Source: an uncultured Acidobacteriota bacterium (GTDB taxonomy: Bacteria > Acidobacteriota > Thermoanaerobaculia > Multivoradales > UBA5704). From it: DNA of 64,000 nt. The stretch is from positions 3,872,001 through 3,936,000 of the forward strand of contig CAVYRF010000002.1 in the NCBI GenBank assembly GCA_963770895.1, read 5' to 3'. Positions 3 to 7,980 of this stretch are shown piece by piece. Below the pieces are notes generated by a model. The model saw only the letters and a list, made by a program, of their open reading frames with translations. It was not told where the DNA came from and made no database searches. Numbering within the stretch: the first letter of the stretch is position 1; every line of letters starts with the position of its first letter. Both the position numbers and the translations under genes were made by a program.

Positions 3-2330
3 CCGCGCGCCGGCAGCGTCACGGTGCGCGGCCACTACGCTTTTGTGGCGGCCGGCGAGGAAGGTGTTTTCGGCGGTCTGCACGTGGTCGAGCTGGCGGA
101 AGCGATCGACCCGGTGGAGGTGGGGGCGAGCGAGGACGACCTGGGGGTGGTGCGGGCTACCCTTCAGGACGGGTTCGCCTTGGGGGCGCAGTTCTTCCTT
201 GCCGCGCAGGTGGCGATCTTCGACGTGAGCGGACTGCCGCCGGTCTACTCGGCGGTGCTGGACCTGGCCACCCTTCCCGGTGGCGAGGCGGTCGTCGCGC
301 CACGCGCCAACGACATCGCCGTGCGCAACGGCGCGGTGTTCCTGGCGGCCAACGGCGTGCAGCTGGGCGAGCTCATCCCCTATGCCGTGGAGCAGGGCGG
401 CCTGTACACGGGCCTGTTCGAGCTGCCGAACGACGGCGATGCCACGCCGCCGACGGTGAGCCTGAGCACGCCGTCTGCCGGGTCCTCGGTCATGGAGCGG
501 CTGCCGATGACGGTGACCGCGACGGCCCAGGACGAGGTTTCGGTGACCTCGGTCGGAATCCTGGTTAACGGCGCGCTGGTCGAAACGCTCTACAAGCCGC
601 CCTTCCAGACGACCATCACCGTGCCCGCCGGTCAGCCGGCGATGACGCTGGGCGCAGTCGCGACCAACATCGGCGGCGTGCAGGCGACGACTCAGGAAAC
701 GCTCGCCGTCCAGCCGTATCCGCTGCCGGTCGCGACACTGCTGGCGCCGGTACCCGGCCAGACGCTGGTCGATGGTACGCCGCTGACGATCGCGGTGGCG
801 GCGACCGACGCCGTGGCGGTGACGCAGGTCGAGGTCTACGTCAACGGCCACCTGGCGGGCACAGCCACGACGCCGCCCTACCTGTTCCAGGTGACACTCC
901 CACGCGGCGCGGCGACGTTTGCGGTGACGGCCCTGGCCTACGACGCTCAGGGACCAGGCACGATGTCGGCGCCCGTGACCGTCGTCGTGCAGCCGGATGC
1001 GCCCCCGACGGTGGCGATCCTTGCGCCGCTCGATGGGGCGCAGGTCACCGAAGGGAGCGTGGTGTCGATCGTCGCCGGAGCGAGCGATCCGACCGGCATT
1101 GCCGGCGTGCAATTCGACCTCGACGGCGTCGAGCTCCAGGGGACGGCGGTTGCACCCTACACGGTGCAGATCGTGGCACCGCCGGAGGGTCAGACCCTGG
1201 TGCTCGACGCCGTCGCCACCGATACCGTGAACTTGGCGGCCCGCTCTACGCCGGTGACGATCACCACCGTGGTCGACCCCGGAACAGCGATCAGCGGCAC
1301 CGTCCTGGACCCGGCCGGCGCTCCGGCCGCCGGGGCGAGCATCGTCGTCGTCGCCGGCACCTTTTCGGCGACTGCCACGTCGGGTGTCGACGGCTCGTTC
1401 ACGTTGGGCGGCCTGCCCACCAACGACGGCGACTATGCAATCAGCGCCGTCGGTCAGGTAAACGGCTGCCAGGCGGAGGCCGACGCCCAGGTACCCCCGC
1501 CGCCGCCGGGGCAAAACGAATCGCTCGGCAACCTGACCCTGGTGCCGGCTCCCGTGCCGCAACCCACTACCGTGGCCGGCACGATCCTGGGAACGGACGG
1601 CAACGGCCTTGCCGGCGTCACCATCACGGTTTCGAGCACCGACCTGGCCGACACCGCAACCGTCGTGAGCGGTCGCGGTGGCGTGTTCGTCGCGCCCAAC
1701 TTCCCGGCGCGCGCCTGGACGCTGCAGGCCGAGGCCACGATCGCGAACGGCGGAGCGCTGCTCTACGCCGCCACCGGCGCCTCGCCGACCGGCCCGCACG
1801 CGGTCGCCGGCGGCACCACCAACCTGTAGACGCTCGCCCTGCAACCCTATCCGTTCACCGGTCCCGACCCGCTGACCACCGTCATCGGCCAGGCGCTCAA
1901 CCCCGACGGTTCGCCCGCCGCCGGCGCTCAGGTGGTGGTCGACGTCGGCTTCGAGCAGCTGGCAGGGGTCGCTGCGGCCGACGGTACGTTCAAGGTGGCC
2001 GGCGTGCCCACGCTCCAGGGGTTCTTCAAGATCACCGCGGCGCTCCACGAGCCGTGCAACGTCCTGCTGGTTGGCGGACCGGTGACGGTGAGCCAGCTGA
2101 CCGCGGGTGGGCAGACCGCCGTAACGCTGCCTCCGCTGGTGCCCGACCCTGGACCGCCCCCGCCGATCATCTTCGCGTCGCTGCCGTTCCCAGCTTGGCC
2201 CGGCAAGGCGGCGCGGTGCGCGGACACCGCCGCCGCAGGCGGCCTGCGCGGCTCCGTGCGGCGGGCTGCGCCGACCGCGTGCATGGCTTCTGCCGCGCGG
2301 ACCGTGGCGGTGCCGGAGCTCCCGCAGTGA
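3..2330 (+). CDS. Large surface/secreted protein, truncated at the left edge: LVIVD-like repeat, three bacterial Ig-like domains, three carboxypeptidase-regulatory-like beta-sandwich repeats; interrupted by an in-frame TAG at 1827-1829
   Basis: The frame is open from base 3 (SVTVRGHYAFVA..GLHVVE, LVIVD-like). Three 'PTVxxxxP..G..V.E/DG' Ig repeats follow. Repeats 'TAISGTVLDPAGAPAAGA', 'TTVAGTILGTDGNGLAGV' and, after the TAG, 'TTVIGQALNPDGSPAAGA'. ORFs 24..1829 and 1932..2330 are in the same frame. Confidence 0.75.
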
Positions 2331-3955
2331 CACCGCGGCTGGACGACCTCGCGCCCCTTACCGGCGTGGCGGCGCCGGGGCTCAGCCGCCGGCGCCTGCT
2401 GGCGGGCGGCGCCGCGCTGGCCGGCCTGGCGGTCGCGCCCGCGGCAGGAGCCCTCCCTGCGGCTGCTGGGTCCGCAGGTTCGCGGGCTTCGGCGCGTGCC
2501 GTGGCGGCTCAGCTCCAGGCCGAGCTGCCACATCCCGCGCACCCGATCAACGGCGACGAGACCGCGCTGCCCGGCTGGATTGCCTGCTACTCGAAGGGCC
2601 TGCCCCATAATGCGCTGGGCGAGGTGGACCCAGCCGCCTACCGGCTGCTGCTGCGGGCGGTCGCAAGCCGCGATCCGGCCGATTTTGAATCGATCCCGTT
2701 GGGCGGCTTCGTCAAGCTGGCCAACCCCCAGGCGGCGCTGGCCGAAAATCTGATCGGTCCCGACCCAGACCGCATCGAGCTGCCCTCACCGCCGCGCTTC
2801 GCCAGCGCCGAACAGGCCGCCGAGCTGGTCGAGCTGTACTGGCAGGCGCGGCTGCGCGACGTGGCGTTCGAGGACTACGACGCCCACCCGCTCGCCCGGC
2901 AGGCGACGGCGGACCTGTCGCGCCTGCCCGCCCACACCGGACCGCGCGATGCGACGGGCCAGGTTACGTCGCGCATCCTGTTTCGCGGCGCCGGCACGGG
3001 CTCGGCGACCGGCCCCTACCTGTCGCAGTTCCTGTACCGCGACGTCTTCCTGCCGCCGGTGTGGGTCAAGCAGCAGGAGCGCACGGCGGTGGCCGGGATC
3101 GATTACATGACGCGCCCCGATGCGTGGCTCGAGTGTCAGAACGGTGCCCTGACCGGGGTCAACCGCTTCGACCCCATCCCGCGCTTCATCCGCAACGGCC
3201 GCGACCTGGGGGAGTGGGTGCACCGCGACTTCACCTATCAGGCGGCGCTCGATGCCTGCCTGGTGCTGCTCAAGATCGGCGCGCCCACGAGCGGCGCCAA
3301 CCCCTATAAGCATTCGCGCACGCAGAGCGGCTTCGCCACCTTCGGCGCGCCCTACCTGTTTTATCTGCTGGCGGTGGTGACCCAGGTGGCGCTGACCGCA
3401 TCTTGGTACCAGAAGTGGTGTGTACACCGCAGGCTGCGCCCGGAAGAGTTCGCTGGGCGGGTCGAGATGGTGCGCACCGGTCGCGCCGCCTACCCCATCG
3501 ACCCCGCGGTGCTGCACAGCGCCGGCCTCGACAAGACCCTGCGATTCCACGGCACGGCGCTGCTGCCTCAGGCCTACCCGGAAGGAGCGCCGACCCATCC
3601 CTCGTACCCGGCGGCGCATGCAGTGATAGCCGGCGCCGGCGTCACCGTGCTGAAGGCGTTTTTCGACCAGTCGCACCTGCTGCCCGCCCCGGTGGTCGCC
3701 GCCCCGGATGGGCTGGCGCTCAAGCCCTACATCGGATCGCCGCTCACCGTCGGCGGTGAGCTCGACAAGCTCGCCTGGAACGTCGGCATGGGGCGTAACT
3801 TTGCCGGCATCCACTGGCGCTCGGACGTGGCCGCGGGGCTCGATCTGGGCGAGCGCGTAGCCGTCGCGGTGCTGCGCGAGATGAAGCTCACCGGCAACGA
3901 GATCTTCGCCGGCTTCACCCTGCTGCAGTTCGACGGCCGCCGGGTCGCGATCTGA
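2327..3955 (+). CDS. Vanadium-dependent haloperoxidase (PAP2 superfamily, bromoperoxidase-like) with Tat signal peptide, 542 aa
   Basis: Vanadate-site motifs KWCVHRRLRPE, HPSYPAAHA and RNFAGIHWRSD. N-terminal SRRRLL followed by a hydrophobic stretch and AGA. The GTG start at 2327 overlaps the upstream TGA (GTGA), so the ORF-track start at 2054 is too long. Confidence 0.9.
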   Translation: MTPRLDDLAPLTGVAAPGLSRRRLLAGGAALAGLAVAPAAGALPAAAGSAGSRASARAVAAQLQAELPHPAHPINGDETALPGWIACYSKGLPHNALGEVDPAAYRLLLRAVASRDPADFESIPLGGFVKLANPQAALAENLIGPDPDRIELPSPPRFASAEQAAELVELYWQARLRDVAFEDYDAHPLARQATADLSRLPAHTGPRDATGQVTSRILFRGAGTGSATGPYLSQFLYRDVFLPPVWVKQQERTAVAGIDYMTRPDAWLECQNGALTGVNRFDPIPRFIRNGRDLGEWVHRDFTYQAALDACLVLLKIGAPTSGANPYKHSRTQSGFATFGAPYLFYLLAVVTQVALTASWYQKWCVHRRLRPEEFAGRVEMVRTGRAAYPIDPAVLHSAGLDKTLRFHGTALLPQAYPEGAPTHPSYPAAHAVIAGAGVTVLKAFFDQSHLLPAPVVAAPDGLALKPYIGSPLTVGGELDKLAWNVGMGRNFAGIHWRSDVAAGLDLGERVAVAVLREMKLTGNEIFAGFTLLQFDGRRVAI

Positions 3956-3971
3956 AGCGCGTGGCGGTCCG

Positions 3972-3990
3972 CCGCGGCTCGGAGCCGCGG
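3972..3990 (+). terminator. GC-rich hairpin after the haloperoxidase stop (possible terminator or RNA-stability element)
   Basis: Perfect inverted repeat CCGCGGCT-CGG-AGCCGCGG 16 nt after the TGA; no U-tract. Confidence 0.3.
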
Positions 3991-4325
3991 TCACAGGGTG
4001 CCGCGAGCTGGGGGCTCCCCCGCGGGGCTTTCGAGCGACGGCGCCGCTACCCGTAGCAGAGTCCGCGGGTCGTCGGGGCGGATCTTCAGCCGCCGTCGCT
4101 CCCGGCCAAGGCGTTCGGCGTGCAGGCGCCAGCCGCGGCGGCGAAGACTCGGCACCGCAGGCACGCCGGGTGCGTCCACGCGTTGCAGGAAGTGCGGCAG
4201 GTCCTGCTTGGTTTCGTCGGTCGTCGAGCCGCCGCCGTAAAACACCGGACGCCGGTGTCATGCGTTTCGAGCCCGGCGCGTCTGGCCGGCCGGCAAGCAC
4301 ACTACTTGATGAGGAGGAAAGGCTC

Positions 4326-4493
4326 ATGAAAAAGACAACTTGGACGCTCCACCTCAGCCGCGAGACCCTGCGTCACATGCAAGACCCATCGGCTCTGCGC
4401 ACCGCACCCGGCGGCGCTCAAAGCATACCTGTGACCGCCTGCAATACCAGCTGCCCGCCCATCTGCACGCAGGTCAGGGTCTGCGCCGGCTGA
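4326..4493 (+). CDS. RiPP-like precursor peptide 1, 55 aa: MKKTTWTLHLSRETLRHMQDPSALRTAPGG|AQSIPVTACNTSCPPICTQVRVCAG
   Basis: AGGAGG RBS upstream of the ATG; LxLSRETL leader motif; GG cleavage motif; core with 4 Cys and 5 Ser/Thr. Confidence 0.85.
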   Translation: MKKTTWTLHLSRETLRHMQDPSALRTAPGGAQSIPVTACNTSCPPICTQVRVCAG

Positions 4494-4773
4494 GCGCCGG
4501 TCGGGTGCTCTGGGGCAGAGGCGTAGCGCGGTCCAGATGGCGCAGGGCGTCGCGAGCGGCGCCCTGCGCGGGATCGTGACGTGGGGCGGCCTGCAGCTGC
4601 TCGCGGGTGCGAACGACCTCGCACTTACGGAGCAGCATGCAGGCCAGCTCGAAGCGGGTCCGCTTGGTTGGCGCAATCGCCAGCCGTCAGGTGCGCAAAG
4701 GTAGCCCTCGTCATGGATTGCGACCGCTCCGGCACAAGAATAGGTACGGGGCCAACTAAAGGGAGACAGCACC

Positions 4774-4929
4774 ATGAAAAAACAGATCCGGCACCTGTTG
4801 CTCAATCGCGAGACACTGCAGAACCTGACCGCTTCCAACCTGCCCAAGGTGGTCGCCGGCGCCGCCACCTTTCCGCCTGTGTGCGAGAACAGTGGCAACG
4901 CCATCACCCACTGCACGGGCTGTTGCTAG
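4774..4929 (+). CDS. RiPP-like precursor peptide 2, 51 aa: MKKQIRHLLLNRETLQNLTASNLPKVVAG|AATFPPVCENSGNAITHCTGCC
   Basis: Translated by hand, absent from the ORF track. AAGGGAG RBS; LxLNRETL leader; VVAG cleavage-like motif; core with 4 Cys and 4 Ser/Thr. Confidence 0.85.
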   Translation: MKKQIRHLLLNRETLQNLTASNLPKVVAGAATFPPVCENSGNAITHCTGCC

Positions 4930-5112
4930 GAGGCCGGCAGCGATCGCTCCGAACCGGTGCCGGCTGCGACCGGCGCCGGCCGCCGCGACCTCGGTGCGGC
5001 GCCGGCGGTCCCGCGTTGACAACCTGGGCCGCGAGATCGGTGCCGATCCGCTGCGCTAGCTTAGCGACGAGTGCTAAACTTCCGCTGTCTCAAAGGCAAG
5101 GGAGATCCGTTC

Positions 5113-5268
5113 ATGCACAAGACGACCAAGAAGCTGACCCTGTCACGCGAAACTCTTTCCATTCTGACCCTCGATCGTGCGCTTCGTCCGGTGGTAGGGG
5201 GCGTCAGCGTCCAGACCTGTCCTGAGGAAACCTGTACTGAACTGAACCACTTCTGCGTCGGAACCTAA
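5113..5268 (+). CDS. RiPP-like precursor peptide 3, 51 aa: MHKTTKKLTLSRETLSILTLDRALRPVVGG|VSVQTCPEETCTELNHFCVGT
   Basis: AAGGGAG RBS; KKLTLSRETL leader; VVGG motif; core with 3 Cys and 5 Ser/Thr. Confidence 0.85.
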   Translation: MHKTTKKLTLSRETLSILTLDRALRPVVGGVSVQTCPEETCTELNHFCVGT

Positions 5269-5432
5269 ACTGGCGGGTGACATCGAGGGAAGGCTTCGCC
5301 GGGGTGCGGCAGCTGGCAGTGCCAACCCGAAGGTGGCGCCGGCGCCGGGGGCCGGCTGGTGTTCTGGGCCAGACCCGCTTCGCGGGCCGCCTCCTCCCAG
5401 ATCCTGGTGGCCGGCGGAGGGGCTTGCTGCGG

Positions 5433-7832
5433 CTACTCGTAGCGGATGGCGACCAGCGGGTCGACGTTCATGGCGCGGCGGGCGGGAAAGTAGGTGGCCA
5501 GCAGGGCGACGAGCAGGAGAAACAGGGCGGTGCCCAGGTAGGCGAGGGGGTCGGCGGGGGAGATGCCGTAGAGCATGCTGGCGATGAGGCGGTTCCCAGC
5601 GAGGGCGCCGGCCGCGCCGATCGCGATGCCGAGGAGGGTGAGGACGAGTCCCTGTCCTGAGACGAGGCGAAAGATGGCGGTGCGACGGGCTCCCAGGGCG
5701 ACGCGGGTGCCGATTTCGTTGGTGCGCTCCATGACCGAGTAGGCGAAGACGCTGTAGATGCCGAGGGCGGCGAGGAGGAGGGCGAGCACGGCGAAGAGGG
5801 CGAGCAGCATGGTCTTGGCGCGCGGCTCGGCGACGGAGGTGGCGAGGTGGGCGTCCCAGGTCTGCAACTCGTCAAGCGGCAGCTCACGGTCGAGACTCCA
5901 GACGAGACGGCGCACGCTCGGCAGGGCGCCTCCGGGGTTCGCCGCCGTGCGCACCATGAAGGTCAGATCGTCGATGTGCTTCTGCAGCAGCGTTACGTAG
6001 AGGGAGGGCGTGATGTCGTCGGTGATGCCGCGTTCGCGTGCGTCGCCGACGACGCCGATCACTTCCCAGTCCTTGTCGTCGTAGCCGAAGTGCTTGCCGA
6101 GCGGATCCTGGCCCGGCCAGTAGGTTTCGGCCATCTTGCGGTTGATCATCGCCACGAGCGCCGTATGCTCGGTGTCGCCGGAGTTGAACTTGCGCCCGTG
6201 CAGGAGCGGCGTCCCGACGGTGCCGAAATAGTCGCCGTCGATGATGCGCACGTTGGCCGACGGTTCCTTGCCCTTGGGCGGCTGCGCCCGGTCCTTGAAC
6301 ACGATGGTGCTCACCGTCGCGGGCCACATCAGCGGCGGCTGGTTGATCGCGCCGACAGCGGTGACGCCGGGAAGGGCGGCGGCTCCCTGCAAGACCTGCT
6401 GGAAGAAGGCGTCGCGCTTCGCCACCGAGTCGTAACGCGCCGTGTCGGAGGGGAGCGCCAGCGGCACCATGACCATGTGACTGGGGTTGAAGCCGAGGTC
6501 GATGGCGCGCAGGTTGGACAGGCTGCGCAGCAGCAGCACCGCGGCGACCAACACCATCATGGTGAGTGCCACTTCAGCCACCAGCAGCCCCTTGAGCACG
6601 CCGCGGGTGCGTCCCGAGGTGGCCCGCCCGCGCGCCTCCTTGAAGGCCGAGACGAGGTCGAGCCGGAAGGTCTGGCCGACCGGTGCGAGTCCGGCCACCA
6701 CGCCGGTCAGGAGCGAGACCGCAAGGGTCACGAGGAACACCCGCATGTCGATGGTGATCTCGTCCTTGCGCGGCAGTGAGGTGAGCAGGTCGAGCAGGAA
6801 GCTCTTCGAGAGCACGGTGAGGACGACGCCCAGGGCGCCGCCGGAGAGCGCGAGCAGCAGTCCCTCGAGCAGGAACTGGCGCACGATGTCGCGACGGTCC
6901 GCCCCGTGCACCAGGCGCAGCGCCACCTCGTAGCCGCGCTGCTGGGCGCGTGCGACCAGCAGGCTCGCGACGTTGGCGCATGCAATCAACAGGACGAGCG
7001 CCGCGGTCGCGGTGAGCGCCAGGATGCCGACCCGGGTCTTGCCAACCACCACCTCGCGCAGCGGCACCACGTTGACCCCCCAGCCGGCGTTGGTGTCGGG
7101 GTACTGCTGCTCGAGGTGGGCGGTGATGATCGACAGCTGCTTCTGCGCCAGCGCCACCGAGGCCGTGGGCTTGAGGCGGCCGATGGCGAAGAAGTAGCGC
7201 CAGCGGTAGGTCCGCTCCTGCGGCGTGAACGCCACCGGCACCCAGAGCTGCGCCGAGGTGGGGTAGATGTAGCCCGCCGGCATGACGCCGATGACGGTGT
7301 AGGGGCTGCCGTTGAGCTTGAGCGTCTTGCCGATGACGTTGGGGTCGCCGTTCAGAAATTTCTTCCAGAACGAATAGCGGATCACCACCACGTGCCTGCC
7401 AGGGTCGTTCTCCTCGTCGGCGTCGAGGGTGCGCCCGAGAATGGGCTTCATGTCCATGACCTTGAAGAAGTCGCTGCCGACGCGGACGCCGAGCTGGCTG
7501 GTGGGGGTGGCGAGGCCGGTGATGTTGTAGTACTGGAACCCGGCCGGGCTGAAAGCTGCGAAGACCGTGCTCTGGGCCTTCCAGTCCAGCACGTTGCCGG
7601 GCGAAACCATGGTGCGGTCGTCCGCCGAGCCCTTCTGGTGATCGTAGACCATCACCACGCGCTCCTGATGCGAGATGGGTAGCGGCTTGAGCAGGATGGT
7701 GTTGACGACGCTGAAGATGCCGGTGTTGGCGCCGATGCCCAGCGCGAGCGCAAGCACTGCGGCCAAGGTGTAGCCGGGGCGGCCCAGGAGAGACCTCAGA
7801 GCGTAGCGAACATCCCGAGTCAATGCCTCCAT
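5433..7832 (-). CDS. ABC transporter permease, internally duplicated MacB/FtsX type (ADOP-like), 799 aa
   Basis: Typical N-terminus 'DVRYALRSLLGRPGYTLAAVLALALGIGANTGIFSVVN'; 'LLIACANVASLLVAR'; two periplasmic/FtsX halves; C-terminus 'PARRAMNVDPLVAIRYE'. An AAGGAGG RBS supports the ATG at 7832. Confidence 0.92.
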   Translation of the reverse strand: MEALTRDVRYALRSLLGRPGYTLAAVLALALGIGANTGIFSVVNTILLKPLPISHQERVVMVYDHQKGSADDRTMVSPGNVLDWKAQSTVFAAFSPAGFQYYNITGLATPTSQLGVRVGSDFFKVMDMKPILGRTLDADEENDPGRHVVVIRYSFWKKFLNGDPNVIGKTLKLNGSPYTVIGVMPAGYIYPTSAQLWVPVAFTPQERTYRWRYFFAIGRLKPTASVALAQKQLSIITAHLEQQYPDTNAGWGVNVVPLREVVVGKTRVGILALTATAALVLLIACANVASLLVARAQQRGYEVALRLVHGADRRDIVRQFLLEGLLLALSGGALGVVLTVLSKSFLLDLLTSLPRKDEITIDMRVFLVTLAVSLLTGVVAGLAPVGQTFRLDLVSAFKEARGRATSGRTRGVLKGLLVAEVALTMMVLVAAVLLLRSLSNLRAIDLGFNPSHMVMVPLALPSDTARYDSVAKRDAFFQQVLQGAAALPGVTAVGAINQPPLMWPATVSTIVFKDRAQPPKGKEPSANVRIIDGDYFGTVGTPLLHGRKFNSGDTEHTALVAMINRKMAETYWPGQDPLGKHFGYDDKDWEVIGVVGDARERGITDDITPSLYVTLLQKHIDDLTFMVRTAANPGGALPSVRRLVWSLDRELPLDELQTWDAHLATSVAEPRAKTMLLALFAVLALLLAALGIYSVFAYSVMERTNEIGTRVALGARRTAIFRLVSGQGLVLTLLGIAIGAAGALAGNRLIASMLYGISPADPLAYLGTALFLLLVALLATYFPARRAMNVDPLVAIRYE

Positions 7833-7980
7833 CGGTCCTCCTTTATAAATCATTATATTAAGACAATTCCTTCGGCTAGCGCATGCTCTACAACAGCTTA
7901 ATCATCTGTTATGGTAAATAGTAGTGATTAGATCAAGTCGCTCGGCAATTTCAGTGGTGATCGTCATTTAATTTTCGCAG
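7833..7980. promoter_or_regulatory. AT-rich divergent promoter region between the permease and the NRPS operon
   Basis: The most conspicuous AT-rich island in the window. Perfect TATAAT on the minus strand at 7857-7852, just upstream of the permease RBS. Inverted repeat AACAG-N9-CTGTT at 7892-7910. Confidence 0.6.

What the first reader, a model, noticed from the sequence alone, without database searches (positions are those of the whole stretch)
4326..5268. Three tandem orphan Cys-rich RiPP precursors with a conserved LxLxRETL leader and hypervariable cores
Seen: three 51-55 aa ORFs, each with its own RBS. They share a Lys-rich start, LxL(S/N)RETL at the same offset (residues 8-15) and a GG/AG motif at residue 29-30, followed by unrelated 21-25 aa cores with 3-4 Cys and 4-5 Ser/Thr. 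The middle one is absent from the ORF track and the other two have wrong starts there. Known: a conserved leader with a variable core is the hallmark of RiPP precursors, LxLxKxT-type leaders occur in class I lanthipeptides, and double-glycine sites are cut by C39 peptidase transporters. Seen: there is no LanB/LanC/LanM/LanKC, YcaO, radical SAM enzyme or C39 transporter in 64 kb. Inference: this is a dispersed combinatorial peptide library matured in trans, or a new RiPP class using neighbouring enzymes.
Basis: partly seen in the sequence, partly recalled or inferred. Interest (0 to 1): 0.88.

Follow-up and report, generated by a model that had tools for sequence, protein, structure and literature searches.

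The report
Three dispersed class I lanthipeptide precursors
These three small genes are real and belong to a family of about ninety scattered lanthipeptide precursor genes in one soil acidobacterial genome that holds a single complete dehydratase far away, much like the marine prochlorosin peptide libraries but built on different enzymes.

Summary
Three ORFs (4326-4493, 4774-4929, 5113-5268) each have a ribosome-binding site. They share a K-rich LxLxRETL...GG/AG leader and have unrelated Cys/Ser/Thr-rich cores.

They are not a local oddity. The 8.16 Mb genome carries 88-97 such genes at about 80 loci, and this is the only triplet.

The leader is the class I lanthipeptide type:
- It gives sub-threshold hits to NCBIfam NF038153.
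- The same leader lies beside LanB dehydratases in 31 of 80 LanB loci from Acidobacteriota, Myxococcota and other phyla.
- A model built only from those LanB-adjacent leaders finds all three ORFs.

The genome has one full-length LanB with an adjacent LanC, 1.3 Mb from the triplet and with no precursor within about 16 kb. Among 41 relatives, 24 of 25 genomes with precursors have a strong LanB match, against 2 of 16 without precursors.

The neighbouring genes (a vanadium bromoperoxidase homologue, an ADOP permease, an NRPS/PKS cluster) are not recurrent partners of these precursors.

Best reading: class I LanA precursors matured in trans. This would be a soil, class I counterpart of the prochlorosins, and my literature searches found no description of one. 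Modification and expression remain untested. Novelty: new variant of a known kind.

The parts
4311..4317 (+). RBS-like GAGGAGG upstream of ORF1
   Evidence: Read. RBS-like strings occur upstream of 94 of 107 family matches, against 17.8% of 5000 random 17-mers.
4326..4415 (+). ORF1 leader (30 aa, MKKTTWTLHLSRETLRHMQDPSALRTAPGG)
   Evidence: Leader model E=1.2e-12. Model built from LanB-adjacent leaders of other genomes E=0.0062. No NF038153 hit.
4416..4493 (+). ORF1 core (25 aa, AQSIPVTACNTSCPPICTQVRVCAG) plus stop codon
   Evidence: 4 Cys and 5 Ser/Thr. An orthologue in G005 is 72% identical and keeps all 4 Cys. A soil contig in run X8 shows substitutions but no indel inside the ORF, with indels starting 2 nt after the stop.
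4496..4704 (.). Spacer between ORF1 and ORF2, a repeated element
   Evidence: 78% identical to C2:2843060-2843266, which lies next to another family member at C2:2843327-2843482. No Pfam family at a credible score on the minus-strand frames. Function unknown.
4761..4765 (+). RBS-like GGGAG upstream of ORF2
   Evidence: Read; family-wide RBS count.
4774..4860 (+). ORF2 leader (29 aa, ends AG)
   Evidence: NF038153 gives 17.5 bits, E=0.0035, below the 22-bit cut-off. Leader model E=1.3e-13. LanB-adjacent-leader model E=7.2e-10.
4861..4929 (+). ORF2 core (22 aa, AATFPPVCENSGNAITHCTGCC) plus stop codon
   Evidence: 8 homologues in public protein collections are 63-92% identical, with PPVCE.SGNA and three Cys invariant while the leader varies more. 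The paralogue at C2:4747628 has 6 replacements, all at residues 33 or lower, and only synonymous changes in the last 18 codons.
5100..5104 (+). RBS-like GGGAG upstream of ORF3
   Evidence: Read.
5113..5202 (+). ORF3 leader (30 aa, ends GG)
   Evidence: NF038153 gives 12.1 bits, E=0.16. Leader model E=3.9e-13. LanB-adjacent-leader model E=3.7e-7.
5203..5268 (+). ORF3 core (21 aa, VSVQTCPEETCTELNHFCVGT) plus stop codon
   Evidence: 3 Cys and 5 Ser/Thr. An orthologue in G005 is 66% identical and keeps SVQTCP..CT..NHFCV.T.
2054..3955 (+). Neighbour, probably not part of the system: vanadium-dependent bromoperoxidase homologue (start codon uncertain)
   Evidence: PDB 1qi9 E=2.5e-72. Pfam PAP2. The three other copies in this genome lie 72-132 kb from any precursor.
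5433..7853 (-). Neighbour, probably not part of the system: ADOP-family duplicated permease (MacB/FtsX type)
   Evidence: TIGR03434 848 bits. The family has 58 ORFs in the genome and lies near 8 of 80 precursor loci, against 5.8 expected at random.

Best explanation
The three ORFs are class I lanthipeptide precursor (LanA) genes. They form the only triplet in a family of about 90 LanA genes scattered over about 80 loci in a Thermoanaerobaculia (Acidobacteriota) genome.

Inferred mechanism:
1. Each gene is translated from its own ribosome-binding site.
2. The N-terminal K-rich LxLxRETL box is bound by the genome's single full-length LanB dehydratase (C2:5180050-5183583, 1.3 Mb away). LanB glutamylates the Ser/Thr of the core and then eliminates the glutamate.
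3. The adjacent LanC, or one of the other stand-alone LanC-like proteins, adds the core cysteines to the dehydro residues. This would give 3-4 thioether rings per peptide.
4. The leader is cut after GG/AG and the peptide is exported. The likely agent is one of the C39 peptidase-domain proteins encoded elsewhere in the genome.

What is shown: the genes, the family, the conserved leader against variable cores, purifying selection on individual cores, the leader's association with LanB in other genomes, and the presence of intact-looking LanB and LanC.

What is inferred: that this particular LanB/LanC pair acts in trans on these three peptides, the cleavage site, the export route, and any bioactivity.
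For: Gene reality:
- All three ORFs have RBS-like strings. Family-wide, 94 of 107 matches have one, against 17.8% of random 17-mers.
- Pooled GC1/GC2/GC3 for 88 members is 0.54/0.52/0.83. ORF1-3 have GC3 of 0.75, 0.81 and 0.65. The overlapping long frames show no such pattern.
- The ORF2 core is invariant across 8 independent homologues while the leader varies.
- The ORF2 paralogue shows only synonymous changes in the last 18 codons.
- ORF1 and ORF3 orthologues in G005 keep every Cys.
- A contig in soil run X8 carries ORF1-like and ORF2-like genes in tandem, with no indel inside either ORF.

Family:
- 97 six-frame hits at E<=0.1, and 88 after filtering for a start codon and length, at 80 loci.
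- Cores are 15.9% Cys and 22.8% Ser+Thr; leaders are 0.7% Cys. Ser+Thr is at least equal to Cys in 86 of 88 cores.
- Mean pairwise identity is 39% for leaders and 23% for cores. Shuffled controls give 20% and 21%.

Class I link:
- NF038153 (lant_leader_L1a, class I lanthipeptide) hits ORF2 and ORF3 below its cut-off and three paralogues above it.
- The same leader lies directly beside LanB in G027 (six tandem copies, plus a second locus), G025 and G002.
- It also lies within 6 kb of LanB in 31 of 80 LanB loci across several phyla.
- A model built only from 34 such LanB-adjacent leaders in 26 loci of other genomes hits ORF2, ORF3 and ORF1 at E=7e-10, 4e-7 and 6e-3, and hits 74 of the 97 family members.

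Co-occurrence:
- 24 of 25 relatives with precursors have Lant_dehydr_N at E<=1e-60, against 2 of 16 relatives without.
- LanM was not found in 7 of the 25, including genomes with 29, 36 and 38 precursors.

Machinery:
- One ORF carries both LanB domains, at 550 and 236 bits, with no internal stop. It matches MibB (5ehk) at E=6e-47.
- The adjacent LanC aligns to solved LanC proteins with its GxAHG, WCYG and CHG motifs in register.

Complex prediction (LanB residues 1-790 with ORF1):
- Median score 0.55 (three runs: 0.60, 0.55, 0.55); best of 3 controls 0.02. The tool's verdict was 'weak support'.
- The pass mark was reached by 58 of 80 solved complexes and 2 of 110 mismatched pairs. At 0.60 or under, only 7 of those 80 solved complexes passed, as did both mismatches.
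- The runs agree in at least 35% of contacts, and the partner's pLDDT is at least 39.
- A NisB-leader complex has been solved, so the pass may come from the model's memory.
Against: - There is no experimental or expression evidence of any kind.
- None of the three ORFs reaches NF038153's curated cut-off, and ORF1 has no hit at all.
- No family member lies within about 16 kb of the LanB/LanC pair, so action in trans is an inference.
- The genome also holds two LanM, two LanKC-like proteins and several LanC-only loci that could take some of these peptides. The best-scoring family member lies 3.5 kb from a LanM, and three members lie within 320 bp of stand-alone LanCs.
- G024 has 27 precursors but only fragmentary LanB matches.
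- The co-occurrence counts come from related genomes and are not independent.
- The seeds of the 'independent' leader model were picked with the model trained on G000.
- The assembly is 94.95% complete, so 'single LanB' is a lower bound.
Confidence: 0.72

Rival explanations
1. The peptides are lanthipeptide precursors, but they are matured by one of the genome's class II (LanM) or class III/IV (LanKC) synthetases rather than by LanB/LanC. The nearest candidate is the LanKC about 13 kb upstream.
For: - A RamC_N + Pkinase + LANC_like protein lies at C2:3859985-3863089, about 13 kb upstream of ORF1.
- The top-scoring family member lies 3.5 kb from a LanM.
- A class II cluster from a Thermoanaerobaculia MAG with a Cys-rich precursor has been characterised (PMC13083261; I read passages only).
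Against: - The genes between the LanKC and the triplet are unrelated large surface proteins with Ig-like and CBM domains.
- As I read the three cores, they lack the Ser-x-x-Ser-x-x-x-Cys pattern. That this pattern typifies class III is recalled, not tested here.
- LanM was not found in 7 of 25 precursor-bearing relatives.
- One of the two LanM genes in this genome has a precursor-like ORF of a different leader type next to it (C2:276215-276463).
- The leader family lies beside LanB in 31 of 80 LanB loci.
Confidence: 0.12
2. They are unmodified, or only disulfide-bonded, Cys-rich secreted peptides. Their double-glycine-type leader is cut and exported by a C39 peptidase transporter with no lanthionine chemistry.
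For: - A GG/AG motif ends the leader.
- The genome has 9 Peptidase_C39 matches, 3 of them strong.
- There is no maturase in the window.
Against: - Ser+Thr is at least equal to Cys in 86 of 88 cores, and Ser+Thr is about three times a crude background.
- The N-terminal LxLxRETL box is conserved as well as the GG end, and it co-occurs with and lies beside LanB.
Confidence: 0.07
3. A new RiPP pathway uses the local genes: the vanadium bromoperoxidase homologue, the ADOP permease or the NRPS/PKS cluster.
For: - A bromoperoxidase homologue ends 371 bp upstream of ORF1.
- Its closest homologue in G005 (81% identity) also has a family member about 400 bp away, though with an unrelated core and on the opposite strand.
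Against: - The three other bromoperoxidase copies in this genome lie 72-132 kb from any precursor.
- Of the 9 relatives' loci that one search scanned (1.5 kb flanks; not all confirmed to be bromoperoxidase loci), only 1 has a precursor. That is near chance for this many loci.
- ADOP, PKS and ABC-ATPase neighbours are no more frequent than at random positions: 8 vs 5.8, 5 vs 9.95 and 7 vs 5.8 of 80 loci.
- 73 of the 80 loci hold a single precursor in varied contexts.
Confidence: 0.04
4. The ORFs are decaying or silent relics of past duplications and have no present product.
For: - No RNA data exist for this organism.
- There is no consensus sigma-70 promoter or intrinsic terminator in 3900-5500.
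- Gene callers missed ORF2: its exact sequence is not in the protein collection.
Against: - The ORFs have intact starts, RBS-like strings and stops.
- The ORF2 core is conserved, with synonymous-only change in its last 18 codons.
- There are no indels inside the ORFs, while the flanks carry indels.
- The Cys pattern is conserved in the orthologues.
Confidence: 0.05

Closest known systems
Prochlorosins and synechococsins (ProcM/SyncM, class II lanthipeptides of marine picocyanobacteria)
   Same: - Dozens of precursor genes per genome, with a conserved leader and hypervariable Cys/Ser/Thr cores.
- Most precursors are encoded far from the single synthetase.
- 29 precursors are reported for prochlorosins and 79 for one SyncM (review PMC12328550, passages read). 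Walker et al. state that many prochlorosin precursors lie far from their LanM (PMC7268733, passages read).
   Different: - Here the leader is the class I type found beside LanB, not a Nif11 leader.
- The candidate enzymes are a separate LanB dehydratase plus LanC cyclase(s), not a fused LanM.
- The host is a soil Acidobacteriota lineage.
- The count is 88-97.
- Promiscuous processing has been shown for ProcM and SyncM but is only inferred here.
Canonical class I lanthipeptide clusters with NF038153 (lant_leader_L1a)-type precursors
   Same: - The leader architecture is the same: K-rich start, LxLx(K/R)ETL box, ...GG end.
- The cores are Cys/Ser/Thr-rich.
- LanB and LanC are present in the genome.
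- In relatives G027, G025 and G002, and in 31 of 80 LanB loci, such precursors lie next to LanB.
   Different: - In this genome no family member is clustered with LanB (nearest about 16 kb away).
- Copy number is about 90 instead of 1-6.
- The three ORFs score below the curated cut-off.
Nisin-type system (NisA/NisB/NisC)
   Same: - Two-enzyme chemistry.
- The LanB here matches NisB (4wd9, E=1.8e-24) and MibB (5ehk, E=6e-47). The LanC matches NisC (2g02, E=5e-10).
- A short hydrophobic box in the leader plays the role of nisin's FNLD box. That comparison is recalled, not tested.
   Different: - Nisin has one precursor in one operon with a dedicated transporter, protease and immunity genes. None of these lie beside the precursors or beside LanB/LanC here (ORFs read only).
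- The leader ends in GG/AG rather than at a NisP site (recalled).
Thermoanaerobaculia tha/the class II clusters with a GMC oxidoreductase (PMC13083261)
   Same: Same bacterial class, with a Cys-rich lanthipeptide-type core following a leader that ends in glycines (passages read).
   Different: Those precursors are clustered with a LanM and a GMC oxidase that forms thiazoles. I did not see their sequences, so I cannot say whether their leader is the same type.

Membership tests
Class I lanthipeptide precursor, NCBIfam NF038153 lant_leader_L1a | Leader scores at or above the curated cut-off (22 bits) | tested here: not met
   ORF2 scores 17.5 bits, ORF3 12.1 bits, and ORF1 has no hit. Three paralogues in the same genome score 27.5-28.5 bits.
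Class I lanthipeptide precursor (LanA) in the wider sense | Leader is homologous to leaders encoded next to LanB dehydratases | tested here: met
   A model built from 34 LanB-adjacent leaders in 26 loci of other genomes hits ORF2 at 7.2e-10, ORF3 at 3.7e-7 and ORF1 at 0.0062 among 108,811 segments. Adjacency is shown. The seeds were selected with the G000-trained model.
Class I lanthipeptide precursor (LanA) in the wider sense | Core holds Cys together with at least as many Ser/Thr | tested here: met
   Cys versus Ser/Thr is 4/5, 4/4 and 3/5 for ORF1-3. The same holds for 86 of 88 family cores.
Class I lanthipeptide precursor (LanA) in the wider sense | LanB and LanC are encoded in the same cluster | tested here: not met
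   Neither is in the 64 kb window. LanB and LanC lie at C2:5.18 Mb, 1.3 Mb away. The genome-level requirement, that both are present and intact-looking, is met.
Class I lanthipeptide precursor (LanA) in the wider sense | Dehydration and thioether rings are formed in the product | not testable with these tools
   This needs co-expression and mass spectrometry.
Prochlorosin-like one-enzyme, many-substrate library | Many precursors with a conserved leader and unrelated cores, mostly unclustered | tested here: met
   88-97 members at 80 loci. Leader identity is 39% and core identity 23%, against 20-21% for shuffled sequences.
Prochlorosin-like one-enzyme, many-substrate library | A single synthetase processes all of the precursors | tested here: inconclusive
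   There is one full-length LanB, but also 14 LANC_like matches, two LanM and two LanKC-like proteins. Processing was not tested.
Prochlorosin family proper (ProcA/ProcM) | Nif11-type leader and a class II LanM synthetase | tested here: not met
   Pfam and NCBIfam give no Nif11-type hit, and the only leader match is to the class I family. LanM was not found in 7 of 25 precursor-bearing relatives.
Double-glycine leader peptides cut by C39 peptidase transporters | GG-type cleavage motif, with a C39 transporter available | tested here: inconclusive
   GG is present in ORF1 and ORF3, and AG in ORF2. There are 9 Peptidase_C39 matches in the genome, 3 of them strong and none in the window. Cleavage was not tested.
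Class III/IV lanthipeptide precursors (LanKC/LanL substrates) | Clustered with LanKC, and a Ser-x-x-Ser-x-x-x-Cys core pattern (pattern recalled) | tested here: not met
   The LanKC is 13 kb away with unrelated genes between. As I read them, the three cores lack the pattern.

The most novel reading that the evidence does not exclude
One LanB dehydratase, with a small set of LanC cyclases, matures about 90 unrelated cores in this soil Thermoanaerobaculia lineage. That would be the first natural class I counterpart of the prochlorosin and synechococsin libraries, and the largest lanthipeptide precursor repertoire per genome so far. The repertoire turns over quickly between species: ORF1 and ORF3 have orthologues in only 1 of 60 family genomes searched. 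Each individual core is nevertheless under purifying selection.
Probability: 0.45. Interest if true: 0.78.

Novelty: new variant of a known kind. Interest (0 to 1): 0.62.

Why it matters
Natural systems in which one lanthipeptide synthetase handles dozens of unrelated substrates are known only for fused class II enzymes of marine cyanobacteria. They are the basis of lanthipeptide display and engineering work.

A class I equivalent would give:
- a naturally promiscuous, leader-guided LanB/LanC pair to use as an engineering scaffold;
- about 90 ready-made substrates per genome for studying how ring topology is set when the enzyme is not specific;
- a second, independent case for asking why bacteria keep large, fast-evolving peptide libraries, this time in uncultured soil Acidobacteriota that are already noted for their biosynthetic richness.

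There is also a practical point. Genome-mining tools that look only near LanB or LanC miss nearly all of these genes. ORF2 itself is not in the public protein collection searched.

Tried and rejected
- Promoters and terminators. A consensus sigma-70 promoter and intrinsic terminator scan of 3900-5500 found none. This says little for Acidobacteriota.
- Shared upstream motif. k-mer enrichment over -200 to -15 of 88 members gave only weak signals (CACACT in 8 of 88 against 0.46 expected; TGTCTC in 8 against 0.79). There was no sigma-54-like site (0 of 88). I could not establish common regulation.
- Expression. No RNA holder was listed for the stretch, so expression could not be tested.
- Synteny. 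No genome of the genus has the bromoperoxidase-precursor-ADOP-NRPS arrangement. The G005 contig with the closest bromoperoxidase homologue shares only that gene with the window.
- Recurrent neighbours. ADOP permeases, ABC ATPases, PKS/NRPS, a 42-member family with no Pfam hit, and sigma-54 activators are all within chance. Only phage-type integrases are enriched (4 of 80 loci against 0.64 expected, 0 of 300 simulations as high). I did not follow this further.
- Radical SAM and YcaO. The genome has 31 and 1 matches, none in the window. I did not systematically test their proximity to the other precursors.
- Spacer ORF. The minus-strand 54-aa ORF in the ORF1-ORF2 spacer looked to me like a winged-helix regulator fragment. 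Pfam gave nothing credible, so I dropped the idea.
- Literature. Searches, and passages read, gave no description of a many-precursor class I system or of lanthipeptide precursor expansion in Thermoanaerobaculia. The library holds only open-access papers and preprints. The supplements of PMC7268733, PMC11118758 and PMC13083261 could list such precursors.
- Unpublished genome. The phylum count of 6 of 201 includes one match in G182, an unpublished genome. No other claim rests on it.
Full report
**Observation.** All three begin M(K/H)K and carry LxL(S/N)RETL at residues 8-15. The conserved part ends in GG at residues 29-30 in ORF1 and ORF3, and in AG at 28-29 in ORF2. The cores that follow are 25, 22 and 21 aa long, with 4, 4 and 3 Cys and 5, 4 and 5 Ser/Thr. 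A purine-rich RBS-like string lies 8-14 nt upstream of each ATG. The mechanical ORF list merges ORF1 and ORF3 into longer GTG-started frames. It shows ORF2 only because I lowered the length threshold.

**Are they genes?** Five independent lines say yes.
- An RBS-like string precedes 94 of 107 family matches in the genome, against 17.8% of 5000 random 17-mers.
- Codon-position GC pooled over 88 members is 0.54/0.52/0.83, the pattern of coding DNA in a 70.7% GC genome. ORF1-3 have GC3 of 0.75, 0.81 and 0.65. The long overlapping frames (204 aa antisense, 214 aa sense) show no such pattern.
- ORF2 has 8 homologues, 63-92% identical, in JGI, NCBI, ENA and Logan collections. The core string PPVCE.SGNA and three Cys are invariant in them, while the leader varies more.
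- The paralogue of ORF2 at C2:4747628 differs by 6 residues, all at position 33 or lower. The last 18 codons show only synonymous changes.
- ORF1 and ORF3 each have an orthologue in the closest genome, G005, at 72% and 66% identity, and every Cys is kept. A 2125-base contig in soil run X8 carries ORF1-like and ORF2-like genes in tandem. It has substitutions but no indel inside either ORF, and four indels begin two bases after the ORF1 stop. Of the nine listed ORF1 differences, I read three as synonymous. The rest give T7K, N40G and I46L.

No RNA data were available.

**The family.**
- A regex for the leader box gave 59 six-frame matches. A model built from 45 of them found 97 segments at E<=0.1 among 108,811.
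- After requiring a start codon and a length of 100 aa or less, 88 remain at 80 loci. There are 73 singletons, 6 pairs and one triplet, which is this finding.
- Cores are 15.9% Cys and 22.8% Ser+Thr; leaders are 0.7% Cys. Of the 88 cores, 86 have at least two Cys, and 86 have at least as many Ser/Thr as Cys.
- Mean pairwise identity is 39% for leaders and 23% for cores. Shuffled controls give 20% and 21%, so cores are unrelated beyond their composition.

**What kind of leader?**
- NCBIfam NF038153 (lant_leader_L1a, 'class I lanthipeptide') hits ORF2 at 17.5 bits and ORF3 at 12.1 bits, both below the 22-bit cut-off. It misses ORF1. Genome-wide it gives 43 matches at E<=10, three of them above the cut-off.
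- The decisive link comes from other genomes. In relatives of the same order the same leader lies directly beside LanB: six tandem copies and a second locus in G027, two copies in G025, and one in G002.
- Of 80 public loci encoding relatives of this genome's LanB, 31 carry at least one such precursor within 6 kb. These come from Thermoanaerobaculia, Holophagales, Acidobacteriaceae, Bryobacteraceae, Archangium, Cystobacter, Myxococcus, Kofleriaceae, Chthoniobacteraceae and Actinomycetota MAGs.
- A model built only from 34 of those LanB-adjacent leaders (26 loci) recovers ORF2, ORF3 and ORF1 at E=7.2e-10, 3.7e-7 and 0.0062, and 74 of the 97 family members. Caveat: the seeds were picked with the G000-trained model.

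**Machinery in this genome.**
- Only one ORF has both LanB domains: C2:5180050-5183583, 1177 aa, Lant_dehydr_N 550 bits and Lant_dehydr_C 236 bits. It matches MibB at E=6e-47 and NisB at E=1.8e-24.
- A LanC converges on it 35 bp away. It aligns to solved LanC proteins with its GxAHG, WCYG and CHG motifs in register. That these motifs are the zinc and catalytic residues is recalled, not tested.
- No family member lies within about 16 kb of this pair.
- The genome also has a LanB-N-only protein, a LanB-C-only protein, two LanM, two LanKC-like proteins, stand-alone LanC-like genes (14 LANC_like matches in all) and 9 Peptidase_C39 matches, 3 of them strong.
- A complex prediction of LanB residues 1-790 with ORF1 scored 0.55 (runs 0.60, 0.55, 0.55) against a best control of 0.02. 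The tool's verdict was 'weak support', and with a solved NisB-leader complex in existence the result may come from the model's memory.

**Co-occurrence.**
- Among 41 genomes (G000 and 40 relatives), 25 have leader matches: G000 has 96 and relatives have up to 70. At most 150 candidates were scored per genome.
- Of those 25, 24 have Lant_dehydr_N at E<=1e-60. The exception, G024, has only fragments. Of the 16 genomes without leader matches, 2 have such a LanB.
- LanM was not found in 7 of the 25, among them genomes with 29, 36 and 38 precursors.
- These genomes are related to one another, so the counts overstate independence.

**Neighbours.**
- The gene upstream (2054-3955) is a vanadium-dependent bromoperoxidase homologue (1qi9, E=2.5e-72).
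- The gene downstream is an ADOP permease. From 8075 onward the window is filled by giant ORFs, the first of which is an NRPS.
- None of these families is enriched at the 80 precursor loci.
- The three other bromoperoxidase copies in this genome lie 72-132 kb from any precursor.
- The closest bromoperoxidase homologue in G005 does have a different family member about 400 bp away, on the other strand. With nine loci inspected, that is within chance.
- The LanKC 13 kb upstream is separated from the triplet by unrelated large surface-protein genes.

**Distribution.** The nearest LanB relatives carry titles of Thermoanaerobaculia (Acidobacteriota) soil MAGs. The expansion is found in 20 of 24 genomes of the same family and in one further family of the order. 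In an even sample of the phylum, only 6 of 201 genomes have a match at E<=1e-6, and only G000 and G025 have many. There, 33 candidates were scored per genome, and one of the six genomes, G182, is unpublished.

**Comparison and novelty.** This works like the prochlorosin and synechococsin systems: a conserved leader, unrelated cores, unclustered genes and a single candidate synthetase. It is not a member of that family, because the leader and the enzymes are class I. A 2025 review names SyncM, with 79 precursors, as the most flexible system reported, and it does not mention Acidobacteria (passages read). Walker et al. limited their mining to the LanC neighbourhood and so would have missed dispersed precursors. 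My seven literature searches found no description of a many-precursor class I system.

**Limits.**
- Modification, cleavage, export, activity and expression are all untested.
- 'Single LanB' rests on an assembly that is 94.95% complete.
- Several other lanthionine enzymes in the genome could share the substrates.

Noticed in passing
window 8075-63844: Four giant ORFs (2299, 5377, 6817 and 4951 aa) fill the rest of the window. The first has Condensation, AMP-binding and PP-binding domains, so it is an NRPS. I did not scan the other three.
   Followed up: partly
window 2054-3955: A vanadium-dependent bromoperoxidase homologue (1qi9, E=2.5e-72) with a twin-arginine-like N-terminus. The genome has three further copies at 73-78% nucleotide identity.
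   Followed up: partly
window 4496-4704: The spacer between ORF1 and ORF2 is 78% identical to DNA next to another family member (C2:2843060-2843266). It appears to be a repeated element downstream of precursors, of unknown nature.
   Followed up: partly
L045 4985-8089 (G000:C2:3859985-3863089): A LanKC-type protein (RamC_N + Pkinase + LANC_like) whose open frame also carries a Peptidase_S26 match at residues 30-182. This is either a fusion or two genes in one frame. An ISAZ013-type DDE transposase lies just upstream.
   Followed up: no
L048 4476-7265 (G000:C2:3320476-3323265): A family member with 10 Cys is followed directly by two LanC-like genes, with no LanB nearby. Two other members lie within 320 bp of stand-alone LanCs (C1:1011293 and C1:1568275). 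These may be dedicated cyclases working with a dehydratase in trans.
   Followed up: partly
G000, 80 precursor loci: Phage-type integrase genes lie within 4 kb of 4 of the 80 precursor loci, although the genome has only 8 such ORFs. The random expectation is 0.64, and 0 of 300 simulations reached 4. This hints that some precursors sit on mobile elements.
   Followed up: no
G024 (relative, same family): This genome has 27 leader matches, but its only LanB matches are short pieces in different frames at C3:1392860-1394854. The dehydratase may be broken or misassembled.
   Followed up: no
L046 6002-7584 (G000:C2:4304002-4305584): The best-scoring family member (72 aa, 9 Cys) is followed 90 bp later, on the same strand, by an alpha/beta-hydrolase (Esterase_PHB / Peptidase_S9) with a cupin domain. 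It lies 3.5 kb from a LanM and an ABC transporter.
   Followed up: no
window 4774-4929: The exact ORF2 protein is not in the 5.8-billion-protein collection, although its paralogue from the same contig is. Gene callers evidently missed ORF2.
   Followed up: yes
L047 13790-14890 (G000:C2:5183790-5184890): Directly upstream of LanB lies a 366-aa ORF with a signal-peptide-like stretch and a long Gly/Asn-rich tail that ends in a Cys-containing segment. It was seen only in the ORF list and has no family assigned.
   Followed up: no
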